Shown here: positions 1,827 to 51,100 of the stretch, piece after piece
Numbering within the stretch: position 1 is the first letter of the stretch
Layout of the letters: every line of letters starts with the position of its first letter
DNA from: Octopus vulgaris
Lineage: Eukaryota
NCBI GenBank assembly: GCA_951406725.2
Contig: OX597816.1
Location: 177,754,001 to 177,818,000, forward strand
DNA: 64,000 nucleotides
Direction: 5' to 3'
The notes under the pieces: model-generated
Seen by the model: only the letters and a program-made list of their open reading frames with translations
Databases searched by the model: none
Told to the model about the DNA's origin: nothing
Made by a program: the position numbers and the translations under genes

Positions 1827-1914
1827 CATACATATCACATACATATATACATACATACATATCACATACATATATGATACATATATATATATCATATAGT
1901 TCTATATTTAAGAA

Positions 1915-2045
1915 AGGAGGAAGTATGTACATTATTTACATTTCACGTATATTTGTCCTCATCTTGTTTGTTGTTAACACAACGTTTTGACTGATACACC
2001 CTCCAGATTTCATCAGGTGTCTTGAGGAAATTTCGAACCTGAGTT

Positions 2046-2118
<73 letters not shown>

Positions 2119-2141
2119 TCACTGCCTGGAATCGAACTCAA
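1915..2141 (-). mobile_element. 5'-truncated tRNA-type SINE with (AAT)n linker and a degenerate hammerhead
   Basis: Minus strand: B-box GAGTTCGATTCC (2128-2139), (AAT)n, then GACAC-CTGATGA-...-AAAACGTT-GTGTT (1976-2021), then an AATGTAAATAATGT tail. Confidence 0.6.
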
Positions 2142-2286
2142 GCTATTCATAATAACTGCACTCGGTCTGCTTAGGAGGTTGTTAGGACCTAGCATATGTG
2201 CTGCTTCATTTATTTTTTAGATTTTAGCAGGACATATGCTACGGCACAACAGCCTCCTAAGCAGACCGAGTGCAGATATGAATAGC
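2142..2286. repeat. Imperfect inverted repeat (about 60-bp arms)
   Basis: GCTATTCAT..CTGCACTCGGTCTGCTTAGGAGG..TAGCATATGT mirrored by ACATATGCTA..CCTCCTAAGCAGACCGAGTGCAG..ATGAATAGC. Confidence 0.9.
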
Positions 2287-2380
2287 ATATGGGAATTGGT
2301 ATTAAAGAAGGATAGGAAAATATTAGCCCTAAAATTCACTCCATAATTGCCCGCGGGCATATGACGTAGTGGTTATATAT

Positions 2381-2453: not shown

Positions 2454-2669
2454 TTTATTTTAAGCAGCAGAAAAATCAACAAAATCTGTTACCTGAGTTT
2501 CTCGTTGCCGTTCATCAGACAGTTTTTGCTAGAATGATGAACGGCAACGAGAAACTCAGAGTAACAGATTTTGTTGATTTTTCTGCTGCTTAAAATAAAG
2601 CATATTACTCTACCACTGGTATTTGAGTACTCTTTTTTCCACCTTGTTTCACATTTATGTGTTTACTCC

Positions 2670-3297: not shown

Positions 3298-4329
3298 GCT
3301 GTGAGTCAATGGGCAGACAGAAACAAAATGCAACTGAATGAGGGAAAATTTGAGCTGATGCATTTTGGAAGAAATTCCTCACTAAAACAACCATACTCTC
3401 TTCCTTCAGGGGAACCGCTCACAGCCTCTAACAATATCAGAGACCTGGGTGTAATTGTTGATGACGATCTCAGTTGGAGTGCACACATCAACAAGAAGGT
3501 CGATATAGCTCGTAGGATGAGTTCCTGGATCTTAAGAACTTTCCGGTCCAGAGAACAAGGTGTCATCATACCACTTTTTCCTCCTTTGTACGGCCACACC
3601 TTGAATACTGCTGCCCATTGTGGTCTCCTCACACAAGACAAAGCATCTCCAGAATTGAGTCACCCCAGAGGGCTCTCACTAAACAAATTGAAGGCATGGC
3701 TGCTCTCGATTATTGGGATCGCCTTAAAGCCTTGAAACTTTACTCCCTCCAGCGTCGCCGTGAGCGGTACATCATTTGTACGATGTGGAAAATATACCGC
3801 CAACTTTGCCCAAACGACCTAAACATTAGCTTCAAGGTTCATCCAAGACTTGGACCACGGGCTATACGTCCCCTGCCAAATTCAAGATCACAACATACAT
3901 GTACACTGCAACATAATTTCTTTTCCTCAACAGGCCCTGCCCTATTTAACATTGTCCCGAGGGAGATCAAAGAGGAAACGGATCCCATCAACTTCAAACA
4001 GAGTCTGGATAGATTCCTTCAAAGAATACCAGATAAGCCACCCATAATTGGATGTATCCAATTATGGGTGGCTTATCTGGTATTCTTTGAAGGAATCTAT
4101 CCAGACTCTGTTTGAAGTTGATGGGACCCTTGAACTCACTACTTGAACTCACTACTTGAACAAAACTCACTACTTGAACAAAACTGGATACAACTCACCC
4201 AACAAGAACTCACTACTTGAACAAAACTTGACTTAAACAGGATTCGAATAATCCTATCAGGTGGTGATATTAAGTTAGACATGGCCTGGACCAATCTCTG
4301 GTCGAAACATATCTAAGTTTATCTAAGTA
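3297..4329 (+). mobile_element. CR1-group LINE, 5'-truncated ORF2 C-terminus and 3' UTR
   Basis: Frameshifted ORFs with RDLGVIVD, RPHLEYCCPLWSP, LYSLQRRRERY; 3' stem-loop GACC-AATCTCT-GGTC and TATCTAAGT tail repeats; flanked by (TA)n. Confidence 0.9.
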
Positions 4330-28382: not shown

Positions 28383-29083
28383 AGGCACAGGAGTGGCTGT
28401 GTGGTAAGTAGCTTGTTTACCAACCACATGGTTCCGGGTTCAGCCCCACTGCGTGGCACCTTGGGCAAGTGTCTTCTACTGTAGCCTCGGGCCGACCAAA
28501 GCCTTGTGAGTGGATTTGGTAGACGGAAACTGAAAGAAGCCCGTCGTATATATGTATCTCCAGCATGGCCGCAGTCAAATGACTGAAACAAGTAAAAGAG
28601 TAAAGAGTAAAGAGTATATGTGTGTGCCTGTATGTTTGAGTGTCTGTGTTTGTCCCCCTAGCATTGCTTGACAACCGATGCTGGTGCGTTTACGTCCCCG
28701 TAACTTAGCGGTTCGGCAAAAGAGACCGATAGAATAAGTACTGGGCTTACAAAGAATAAGTCCCGGGGTCGAGTTTCTCGATTAAAGGCGGTGCTCCAGC
28801 ATGGCCGCAGTCAAATGACTGAAACAAGTAAAAGAGTAAAGAGTAAAGAGTATATGTGTGTGCCTGTATGTTTGAGTGTCTGTGTTTGTCCCCCTAGCAT
28901 TGCTTGACAACCGATGCTGGTGTGTTTACGTTCCCGTAACTTAGCGGTTCGGCAAAAGAGACCGATAGAATAAGTACTGGGCTTACAAAGAATAAGTCCC
29001 GGGGTCGAGTTTCTCGATTAAAGGCGGTGCTCCAGCATGGCCGCAGTCAAATGACTGAAACAAATAAAAGAGTAAAAGAGTAA
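28383..29083 (+). mobile_element. SINE family A with 236-bp tandem reiteration of the 3' half
   Basis: CTCCAGCATGGCC recurs at 28558, 28794 and 29030. Confidence 0.9.
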
Positions 29084-48129: not shown

Positions 48130-51100
48130 GGTTCGGGAGTGGGACCAGTGAAACTAGAGAATATTTGGGCCTCAACATAGCCAACGAACAGGTTCGCATA
48201 GTTGGGGCCCATTCGCGTTCCCATGGCCACTCCCGAGACTTGTTGGTAGAACTCTCCCGCGAACGAGAAGCAGTTAAGAGAAAGGACAAGTTCGGCCAGA
48301 CGAATGAGTGTGGAGGTGTCGGGTTCGGGCTTGGGGCGGAGGTCGAGAAAGTGTTGAAGTGCACGCAGTCCTTCGTGGTGAGGGATGACGGTATAGAGGC
48401 TCTGGATGTCCATTGTAAAGAGGAGTTTGGAGGAACCAAGAGGAAAGGAGAAAGAGTTGAAAAGCCGGAGAGCATGGTTGGTGTCGTGGATGTGAGAGGG
48501 AAGAGACGCCACTAGGGGGGCAAGGGCACGGTCAAGGTATTTTGAGATGAGCTCCGTGGGGCAGTTACAGGCGGAGACGATGGTGCGGCCAGGGTTGTTG
48601 GGTTTGTGGATTTGGGGGAGGAAGTAAATGGTGGGGGTGCGTGAGGTTCGGACAATGAGGCTGGATGCGGTGTGGGGGAGACGGGAGGACGAGATGAGGT
48701 CGTGGACAGTAGAGGAGACCGTCTGTTGGTAGCTAAGCGTGGGGTAAGAGGACAGAGGGGAGTAGAAGGAGGTGTCATTGAGTTGGTGGAGCGCCTCGGC
48801 CCTGTAGAGGTCCGCGCGCCACACCACCACAGCTCCACCCTTGTCGGCCGATTTAATGACAATGTCAGCGCGCCGTCGGAGGGAACGAAGAACCGAGAGC
48901 TCGACCGGGGAGATGTTGAGGCGGCGGTGGCGCCTGGAGAAGTTGAACCGCTCCAACGCGCGCTGACAGGCACCCGCGAAAAGATCCACTGCTTGGAACT
49001 GGCCGGGGGCAGGCGTCCACTGGGATGGTCGGCGGCCCAGGTCAGTGAAGCAGTCCTCCTCGTTGGATGCGGGTGGTATGTCGCGGAAAAACGCACCCAA
49101 CCGGACGCTGCGCACAAAGCTGTGGACATCAGCACGCGTCTGGAATTCCTTACAGGATGGAGTGAGGGGTGTGAAACGCAGACCCCTATTGAGGATGGGG
49201 CGCTCCGCCGCAGAGAGGGGAGAATCTGGGGGAATGGTATCAACAGACTGAAGTGGAGAAGGGGTGGATGGAATAGAAGTAGGAGGAGTGGTAGGGCTGG
49301 TGGAGGTCTGAGGGTGGGCGTGGGAGGTGTGTGTGGGTTGTTAGGAGGGACAGTGGGTTAGGTGTGGGTGGGTGGAGCCTATCAGGGGGGAGAAGGGTAG
49401 CGGAGGAGTTGGGGTAGTGGAGTCGGGTGTGATGGAATGGAGGAGTGATTGGAGTTTATGAAGTTTGGTATTGGCAAGAAATTGATGAAAGAGGTGATTT
49501 AAATGGATAATGAAGCGCAACGTGTTTTGAGCATGGAAAGGCGGCAAAGAGGAGAAAAAGATGGAAAAAGCAAGAGGGAGAAGGCAGTTAATGGTATGTA
49601 GTTTAGAGAGATTGGAGCGAAAGGTGGCACGGATAAGGCGGTAAGATGTGGTGCGGAGTATGGATAGAATGGATGAAGCAGAGTGGAGAGCAGTGTGGAA
49701 ATGGAGGCGGAAACCTTTAGGGATGAGGCGGCTTAGAAAAGAGACGTGGCTAGAGAAGCGGTTTTTTTTAAAAAGGAGCAGAGAGAGGTTAATGGATGGT
49801 TGAAAGCAGTGGAGAGGGAGTAGACGTAAGTGTTGTTTCAGGCGATGGTGGAGAGTGAGGAGGTAAGATTTATAATCCGGCATGGTGGAATAGCGAAAAA
49901 AAGAGAGAAGCACAAGCGTTCGAAGAAGAAAAAAAATAAATAAAAATTAAATTAAAAAATAAACATAAAAATAAAAGAATAAGAAAATTTAAAATTAAAA
50001 TAAAATAAAATAAAAATAAAAAATAAATAAAAGTAAAATAAAAATTAGATAAATAAAAGAAGAAAAGGGCGGTAGGAGAAGAAAATAAAGGCGATGAAGA
50101 TGGGACAAATAGAAAAAGGAAAGAAAAGAAAGGAAGCAGAGAGAGAGAGAGAGAGAGAGGCACAATAAGCGGGTGCAAACAGAAAACAGAGTATGGACAT
50201 CCAGAGAAGGAAGAAACGACAGAAAGGAGGACAAAAGAATACAGGAAAATGTGGAAAGTATGAAATGAATGTAAAACAATATAATATACTAGCAGTATCG
50301 CCCGGCGTTGCTCAGATTTGTAAGGGAAATAACTATATAAGCATTTTTAGAGAGTTACTTCCCTTATAGATGCCAATTCGGGCTTTCTTAGCCATTTCTG
50401 TTTTGGTGTCTTCAAGCCATGAAGTCATTGTTCTAAAAGAACGCTGGTCTCCTTGACAACGCATTACGACGTTGATTTCCTTACACTCCCTTCCCCACAG
50501 CTTCACGAGGGAGGGAAGAAGGGGGAGAAGCAAACAGGTGCAGGTGTGACCATGGACGCCAACTCCGCCGCCATCGACACACGAAAAATTATGCATTAAA
50601 ATGGAATAAAAAATGATGTTAAATTATTTTTAAAATCGTAGACTCATCGTAGACGCGCGCTAATACCCAGACGGGCTCGATATGAATCACGACTATAAGA
50701 TACCCGAATTTGGTTAAACTGCACCGCAAAATGTGGGAGTAGTTAGGAATCTAAATCGAAGGGAACAGACACTCACACAACTACAGTTTTATATATATAG
50801 ATGAGAAAAATATGAAAAAATAAAGTGAAAACGAAAGGGACAGATTTTACGAAGAGTTCAGAAGTTTAAAAGTTTGTAGACGTCGTGGTGTATTTCAAGG
50901 ATGTCACATCAATAACAAAGTCAGTTTGATCCGTGTAGGAGAGGTGCAGCCAGAGGGTAGGTGTCCTTAGAGGTAAAAGAAAATCCAATGGAGAGGTAGT
51001 GTCCGTCGAGGAAAGGTAAGAGTTGGTAGTGGTAGAATATAGGATCAAAGTGAGACCACGTGAGCGCGTGATATATAACGGGAACGTTTACGAAAATAAA

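What the first reader, a model, noticed from the sequence alone, without database searches (positions are those of the whole stretch)
1915..2141. tRNA-type SINE that carries a hammerhead: possible Pol III-driven, PLE-mobilised SINE
Seen on the minus strand, in order: B-box GAGTTCGATTCC, GCAGTGACCTG, (AAT)n, then GACAC-CTGATGA-stem II remnant-AAAACGTT-GTGTT and a short repeated tail. This copy has G12 changed to A, so it is probably inactive. Known: SINE 3' ends normally mimic a partner LINE. Inference: a SINE whose 3' module is a PLE-type HHR would be an unusual SINE/retrozyme hybrid.
Basis: partly seen in the sequence, partly recalled or inferred. Interest (0 to 1): 0.7.

Follow-up and report, generated by a model that had tools for sequence, protein, structure and literature searches.

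The report
tRNA-headed Penelope retrotransposon end repeat
This is a damaged copy of the end repeat of a very common protein-coding jumping gene (a Penelope-like element), not a separate SINE; the repeat begins with a tRNA-derived start signal, most short copies begin right there, and they were likely made from RNA polymerase III transcripts.

Summary
The motifs are real and linked genome-wide, but they are not a free-standing SINE. Head, (AAT)n and hammerhead form the pseudo-LTR of a Penelope/Poseidon-type element of about 2.6 kb (reverse transcriptase plus a C-terminal GIY-YIG-like domain). The head lies 29 nt after the stop codon of one unit and upstream of the ATG of the next; the reading frame runs through the hammerhead. 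The window copy is a decayed, internally deleted, head-to-head insertion (1895-2375) with a dead ribozyme, and includes coding sequence. The unusual part is the tRNA-derived head: 54 of 70 A-box copies start within a few bases of tRNA +1, against 2 of 30 for a control motif, so SINE-like short copies dominate. They match ORF-attached repeats in sequence and age. Pol III transcription is inferred, not shown; RNA reads were uninformative. The coding strand has no TTTT terminator, a weak hint (P 0.002-0.06 by null model) that the whole element is a Pol III transcript. Hammerhead-bearing tRNA SINEs (Sm-alpha) and pLTR hammerheads are known. This scan found the same element before on other pieces of this genome (e1-8669850).

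The parts
1895..2375 (.). Whole insertion: head-to-head pair of 5'-truncated pieces of one Penelope-like element, lodged between (TA)n-rich tracts
   Evidence: blastn of the window against natural copies L139 and L186; TRF
1898..1921 (-). PLE 'tail' (extension beyond the first reverse-transcription start; in the full element it is ORF sequence)
   Evidence: tail at exactly one end in 24 of 29 pairs
1898..2050 (-). Start of the PLE ORF: ATG at 2050-2048, frame runs through hammerhead and tail; this copy has an in-frame stop
   Evidence: tblastn of homolog P0008 residues 18-61 against this stretch, 43% identity, E 3.5e-4; module continues into the ORF in L132 and most of L366-L395
1976..2021 (-). 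Minimal type I hammerhead, inactivated here (G12>A, two stem II mismatches); predicted cut between 1981 and 1980
   Evidence: features as in PMC4209133
2049..2114 (-). (AAT)22 linker between head and ATG; the ~20 nt that normally follow it are missing in this copy
2115..2139 (-). 3' third of the tRNA-like head (head positions 51-75) with B box at 2137-2129
2142..2225 (-). Piece of the ORF 3' end (C-terminal nuclease region), joined by an internal deletion to the B box
   Evidence: 82% identity to L139
2226..2352 (+). Inverted partner: ORF 3' end and 3'UTR (forms the 2142-2286 palindrome with the piece above)
   Evidence: 86% identity to L139
2355..2375 (+). Inverted partner: head positions 1-21 with the A box (2362-2372)

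Best explanation
This is a decayed copy of the pseudo-LTR of a high-copy Penelope/Poseidon-type retroelement whose repeat begins with a tRNA-derived head that likely acts as an internal RNA polymerase III promoter. Shown: the unit is head (A box +8, B box +53) - (AAT)n - ATG - hammerhead inside the first codons - ORF of about 840 aa (RT, C-terminal GIY-YIG-like region) - stop - 29 nt - next head; most head-bearing copies start at or near tRNA +1, end at one of two fixed points, often sit as head-to-head pairs with the tail on one side and an 8-16 bp target duplication. Inferred: transcription starts at the head of any intact repeat; the PLE protein binds the ORF-start region and begins reverse transcription internally (as shown in vitro for anole Poseidon, PMC11167929), so a transcript of the repeat alone is a full substrate and yields SINE-like copies of about 270 nt; at the RNA 5' end the cDNA folds back or switches template, giving the inverted partner. 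The hammerhead would cut only as a dimer or with protein help, would sever the ATG from the ORF, and is probably not needed for insertion. Whether Pol III also makes the 2.6-kb coding RNA is open.
For: Head follows the PLE 3'UTR in 30 of 30 copies and precedes the ORF start in L371, L375, L384, L388, L390, L395 of 30 ORF-start loci, L375 starting at +1. RT: Pfam RVT_1 E 1.2e-9 and 2.8e-10; 13 homologs, the best 50-65% identical; homolog P0008 carries the same hammerhead-encoded peptide at its N-terminus. One open frame of 798 aa in the majority of 30 long copies. 5' ends: 54 of 70 within 12 nt of the A-box motif versus 2 of 30 for a motif 26 nt upstream, Fisher p 2e-11; exact-match counts step from 707 (UTR) to 2,007 (A box). 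Head aligns best to a host tRNA-Arg(TCG) among 40 tRNAs, z 7.2. Tail at exactly one end in 24 of 29 pairs, none at both; duplication of 8 bp or more in 20 of 34 tailed units versus 21 of 1,122 mismatched controls. Short and ORF-attached repeats have the same age (4.5% and 5.1% non-CpG divergence). No T4 run on the coding strand.
Against: No direct evidence of Pol III: RNA reads from three runs of one study were even on both strands, 75-79% ran on into unrelated sequence, and no start or end pile-up was seen. 41 of the 54 short copies have an inverted partner and 16 reach -6/-7, where a small palindrome could itself cause fold-back (loose ends at -7). Rfam and ARAGORN do not recognise the head; the Arg assignment is narrow (score 62.5 versus 58.5 and 57.5) and the tRNA set was incomplete. 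The T4 absence is not significant under a dinucleotide null (P 0.064) and G4 is equally absent (P 0.045). Pfam gave no GIY-YIG hit for this family's own C-terminus. The 5'-end samples come from contig C1 only and near-duplicates (L201/L203) were not dropped. No intact young copy was found.
Confidence: 0.7

Rival explanations
1. Same PLE repeat, but the head is a passive relic of an old SINE insertion; the element is transcribed from outside or by Pol II, and copies pile up at the head because the small palindrome at -7..+5 makes the reverse transcriptase stop and fold back there.
For: 41 of 54 short copies have an inverted partner; 16 extend to -6/-7; fold-back junctions at -7 recur in other runs; inverted 5' copies also occur at random points in the ORF.
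Against: 35 of 54 start at -1 to +3, inside or after the palindrome's left arm; 13 short copies have no inverted partner; an ORF-start copy also begins at +1 (L375); both boxes are kept at tRNA spacing in the family majority.
Confidence: 0.17
2. One reading: an independent tRNA SINE that borrowed the PLE end and propagates as its own family.
For: Short copies outnumber ORF-bearing ones (54 of 70); one neutral hammerhead variant (position 7 U>A) is commoner in short copies, 25 of 90 versus 4 of 52, p 0.0045, not significant after about 45 tests.
Against: The head is inside the ORF-bearing element at both ends; no fixed diagnostic difference and equal age (the starred differences come largely from one tandem array on C4 counted several times); the (AAT)n is internal, not a tail.
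Confidence: 0.08
3. The head marks a real transcription start, but Pol II uses it (a co-opted internal promoter), so capped mRNA and short copies come from one Pol II start.
For: A protein-coding RNA needs translation, which normally needs a cap (established knowledge); PLE promoters lie in the pLTR (PMC6765202).
Against: The start coincides with tRNA +1 and both Pol III boxes are kept; the coding strand has no T4 terminator.
Confidence: 0.05

Closest known systems
Penelope/Poseidon PLEs, e.g. Poseidon_Ac of green anole (PMC11167929; parts 1-2 of 4 and passages read) and PLE structure in PMC8557442 (passages)
   Same: Single ORF with RT and C-terminal GIY-YIG-type region, hammerhead overlapping the ORF start, two 3' end points with a one-sided tail, inverted 5'-truncated partner, AT-rich targets.
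   Different: The repeat here starts with a tRNA-derived A/B-box head and (AAT)n; PMC11167929 has no mention of tRNA or Pol III. Clade placement rests on domain order and motifs, not on a tree.
[quoted passage not shown]
   Same: tRNA-derived Pol III-type promoter followed by a type I hammerhead, tens of thousands of copies.
   Different: Described as non-coding and often tandem, with no coding parent named in the passages read; here the unit is the terminal repeat of a coding element, the hammerhead is the minimal form, and pairs are mostly head-to-head.
Minimal hammerheads in animal pLTRs (PMC4209133, passages)
   Same: Extra base between 9 and 10.1, G10.1-C11.1 pair, palindromic 15.2-16.2 with no loop 3, expected to need a dimer.
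   Different: No tRNA head mentioned ('tRNA' 0 occurrences).
Helenus/Ajax/Cassandra TRIMs (PMC10886601, passages)
   Same: Small-RNA-derived Pol III promoter inside a terminal repeat, proposed to arise by SINE insertion.
   Different: Those are non-autonomous LTR elements, and the author argues the autonomous partners must use Pol II; here the head is in the repeat of the coding element itself, and it is a PLE.
Octopus tRNA SINEs OK, OR1, OR2 (Ohshima and Okada 1994; citation seen only, not read)
   Same: tRNA-derived heads in a genome whose repeats look octopus-like (recalled, not established by a call).
   Different: Not compared: no sequence was available. OR2 is a CORE SINE. I cannot exclude that this head or element is already in Repbase, Dfam or SINEBase.

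Membership tests
Penelope-like element (EN+, Penelope/Poseidon type) | Single ORF with PLE-type RT | tested here: met
   RVT_1 E 1.2e-9 and 2.8e-10; DKG and YVDD motifs; one 798-aa frame
Penelope-like element (EN+, Penelope/Poseidon type) | C-terminal GIY-YIG endonuclease | tested here: inconclusive
   VYSIPC...YKGET motif seen; no Pfam hit on three own copies; homologs P0013 (E 0.0024) and P0008 (E 0.23) give sub-threshold GIY-YIG hits
Penelope-like element (EN+, Penelope/Poseidon type) | Pseudo-LTR at both ends with hammerhead at the ORF start | tested here: met
Penelope-like element (EN+, Penelope/Poseidon type) | One-sided tail and inverted 5' partner | tested here: met
   24 of 29 pairs with tail at one end, 0 at both, 5 at neither; 44 of 70 with inverted partner
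Penelope-like element (EN+, Penelope/Poseidon type) | Phylogenetic placement with named clade members | not tested
   no named reference PLE proteins were on hand
tRNA-derived SINE | Head from a Pol III RNA with A and B boxes | tested here: met
   A box +8, B box +53; best match tRNA-Arg(TCG), z 7.2 among 40 host tRNAs; Rfam and ARAGORN negative
tRNA-derived SINE | Copies start at the head's 5' end | tested here: met
   54 of 70 versus 2 of 30
tRNA-derived SINE | Transcribed by Pol III | not testable with these tools
   RNA lays uninformative
tRNA-derived SINE | Non-autonomous family distinct from its partner, sharing only the 3' part | tested here: not met
   whole unit including head is part of the coding element; no fixed difference
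tRNA-derived SINE | 3'-terminal simple-repeat tail | tested here: not met
   (AAT)n is internal; 3' ends fall at two fixed points in coding sequence
Minimal type I hammerhead | Conserved core, stems I and II, palindromic 15.2-16.2 | tested here: met
   family majority; core intact in 32 of 74 aligned copies; not met in the window copy
Minimal type I hammerhead | Self-cleavage | not testable with these tools
   no clear peak of 5' ends at the cut (5 of 96 at 91-98); deletion excess at the cut is unexplained
Animal non-LTR retrozyme | Non-coding head-to-tail repeats processed to circular RNA | tested here: not met
   copies are mostly head-to-head or single and derive from a coding element; tandem cases are few (L003, L008); circles not tested

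The most novel reading that the evidence does not exclude
An autonomous, protein-coding retrotransposon that captured a tRNA-derived promoter as its own 5' module and is transcribed end to end by RNA polymerase III (2.6 kb with no T4 terminator), so that one promoter yields both the coding RNA and a swarm of SINE-like copies: a SINE and its partner still being one element.
Probability: 0.25. Interest if true: 0.8.

Novelty: new variant of a known kind. Interest (0 to 1): 0.52.

Why it matters
If the head is a working Pol III promoter, this element shows an intermediate of SINE birth: the tRNA head and the partner's recognition signal on one coding element, shedding thousands of short copies. 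It would name Penelope-like elements as movers of SINE-like RNA, which may bear on how Sm-alpha-type hammerhead SINEs move. If the coding RNA is also a Pol III product it would go against the view that autonomous retrotransposons need Pol II (argued in PMC10886601) and raise how an uncapped RNA is translated. Both are testable with simple assays. For annotation, such copies will be split between SINE and Penelope labels.

Tried and rejected
Rfam and ARAGORN: no tRNA or hammerhead call. Free-energy folding does not give the hammerhead fold for the window copy (z 0.02 and -0.12) or an intact monomer or dimer; the structure rests on motif and pairing checks. The 2142-2286 palindrome first looked like a MITE; rejected, it is two inverted ORF-end pieces. 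Sequencing runs: no RNA holder listed; lays showed no starts or strand bias. 5' ends at the hammerhead cut: no clear peak. Sister PLE families without the head: none found in 1.6 Mb of loci, so the direction of capture is not shown. The control failed (motif absent from the reference) and was redone. The frame break and G4 result led to the alignment-based repeat. T4 depletion weakened under a dinucleotide null. PDB search gave only distant RTs. No covariation test, fold or complex job was run. Literature searches listed no paper on a tRNA-headed PLE; two searches returned nothing. The library lacks most subscription papers, Repbase and Dfam; bioRxiv supplements and the Zenodo library of PMC13282606 were not seen.

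Full report
Observation. Every motif named is on the minus strand in the stated order. The window lies at G000:C3:177754001-177818000 of a 2.8-Gb genome; its repeats look octopus-like, which is recalled and not established by a call. The stretch is a high-copy repeat: exact 23-mers occur 10,836 times (3' of the hammerhead), 6,191 (hammerhead 5' half), 2,007 (A box) and 707 (upstream of the head), with 0 for each reversed control. Forty arbitrary 10-kb stretches held 3 insertions with the module, roughly 20,000 genome-wide with wide error. In 74 of 100 copies that aligned over the ribozyme the majority has intact CUGAUGA, an extra A, a 5-bp stem II closed by G-C, and GAAAC-GUU; 32 of 74 keep the catalytic core, 11 have G12>A. 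This is the minimal type I form of PMC4209133 (passages). The window copy has G12>A and two broken stem II pairs.

The head. Other copies carry a full 75-nt head with A box at +8 and B box at +53. Among 40 host tRNAs it aligns best to tRNA-Arg(TCG), about two-thirds identical, z 7.2, narrowly ahead of Arg(TCT) and Ala; the set was not complete. Rfam and ARAGORN miss it. Of 70 copies picked by the A-box motif, 56 have the hammerhead module downstream; of 96 picked 3' of the hammerhead, 44 have a head upstream, most others being 5'-truncated.

What it belongs to. Upstream of the head many copies run into a coding region with an RT (Pfam RVT_1) and a C-terminal VYSIPC...YKGET region. The stop codon is followed by 29 nt and then the head; 30 of 30 copies picked by this UTR continue into the head and 27 into the hammerhead module. 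At the other end the module and its 'tail' run straight into the ORF (L132; 30 loci). An ATG just after the (AAT)n opens a frame through the hammerhead, and the full-length homolog P0008 (847 aa) has the same peptide at its N-terminus. Six of the 30 ORF-start loci keep all or part of the head in front; L375 starts at +1. The majority of 30 long copies gives one frame of 798 aa, plus about 38 N-terminal codons, in a unit of about 2.64 kb. So the finding is the pseudo-LTR of a Penelope/Poseidon-type element, as in anole Poseidon, where the hammerhead also overlaps the start codon region and reverse transcription begins internally at two sites that define the tail (PMC11167929, parts 1-2 of 4; I reached this paper through earlier finding e1-8669850). 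Insertions fit: tail at exactly one end in 24 of 29 complete pairs, and target duplications of 8-16 bp in 20 of 34 tailed units versus 21 of 1,122 mismatched controls and 2 of 22 tailless units (boundaries of ORF-bearing units were not extended, so 20 is a floor). The window copy is such a pair: ORF-end piece 2225-2142 joined by a deletion to the B box, and an inverted partner 2226-2375 with the A box. No target duplication could be read in the (TA)n flanks.

SINE-like behaviour. 54 of 70 A-box copies begin between -7 and +3; the other 16 extend 44-793 nt into the UTR and ORF. For a motif 26 nt upstream only 2 of 30 end within 12 nt (p 2e-11). Both samples are from C1, and near-duplicates were not dropped. 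Short and ORF-attached repeats are the same age (4.5% versus 5.1%) with no fixed difference among 90 and 52 copies; starred rows there come largely from one tandem array counted several times, and one neutral variant is enriched in short copies (25 of 90 versus 4 of 52). The simplest reading is a transcription start at the head. The rival is a fold-back hot spot at the small palindrome around -7..+5: 41 of 54 short copies have an inverted partner and junctions at -7 recur in other runs, but 35 of 54 start at -1 to +3 and 13 have no partner.

Is the coding RNA a Pol III product? The coding strand has no run of four T. Expected: 4.6 (base shuffle, P 0.011), 3.1 (codon shuffle, P 0.017) or 4.9 (composition-weighted codons, P 0.002), but only 2.5 under a dinucleotide shuffle (P 0.064), where G4 is also absent (P 0.045). 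A second PLE family has 6 against 5.6 expected and six other long ORFs are at or above expectation. A necessary condition is met; it is a hint only. RNA reads (X21-X23, one study, organism B) cover the element on both strands alike, mostly as parts of other transcripts, with depth doubling at the head and no start or end pile-up: no evidence either way. Contigs of runs X16 and X19 (organisms C and E) bridge the UTR-head junction, so it is not private to this assembly.

Known and new. tRNA SINEs with a hammerhead are known (Sm-alpha, Sj-alpha; passages of PMC2770079 and PMC6765202). tRNA heads in terminal repeats are known from non-autonomous LTR elements (PMC10886601, passages). PLE structure is in PMC8557442 (passages). 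Passages of PMC6962438, PMC7229834, PMC3531059, PMC6685494, PMC4758252, PMC8967140 and parts 1-2 of 3 plus a supplement search of PMC13282606 describe no such element. Ten searches listed no tRNA-headed PLE; repeat databases and Ohshima and Okada 1994 were not seen. Earlier notes of this scan reached the same reading on other pieces of this genome; my reading was formed before I saw them (and the notes) and they are not independent support.

Verdict. A real feature and a member of the Penelope-like elements; it works like a SINE in its short copies but is not a separate SINE family. New variant of a known kind: a coding PLE with a tRNA-derived 5' module. Pol III use is likely for the short copies and possible for the full element.

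Noticed in passing
family-wide; window 1981-1983 equivalent: Deletions of 2-6 nt pile up at the predicted hammerhead cut (48 of 362 covering copies; most bins 0-3, repeat-slippage bins 7-14), mostly loss of the 3 nt just 5' of the cut, with no linked subfamily marker once one tandem array is discounted. Slippage, or a scar of reverse transcriptase crossing a cleaved RNA.
   Followed up: partly
window 2456-2600: A second, unrelated palindromic hammerhead-like repeat (core 2518-2497, minus) in (TA)n; 309 first-look candidates, best copies 93-97% identical.
   Followed up: partly
window 48171-49400, minus: RT piece of another, C-rich Penelope-like family; 1,977 first-look candidates; used as T4 control.
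   Followed up: partly
L003:1-1470 (G000:C25, 19.15 Mb): Tandem array of a 76-nt unit derived from this hammerhead, with two extra bases in stem III; retrozyme- or satellite-like offshoot.
   Followed up: no
G000:C4:129456000-129483000 (L081-L085): A head-to-head insertion of this element amplified in a 5.2-kb tandem array of about six units.
   Followed up: no
L367, L368, L372-L374, L388, L390: Internally deleted derivatives: repeat, first 200-270 nt of ORF, repeat again; possible non-autonomous subfamily.
   Followed up: no
L002, L005, L020, L022, L308, L218: Headless modules joined at (AAT)n to the tails of other elements, suggesting 5' joins by microhomology in existing (AAT)n tracts.
   Followed up: no
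window 3300-4070, plus: 3' end of a LINE-like coding fragment, judged by eye.
   Followed up: no
window 28558-29083: Tandem repeat of period 236, 2.2 copies, 98% alike.
   Followed up: no
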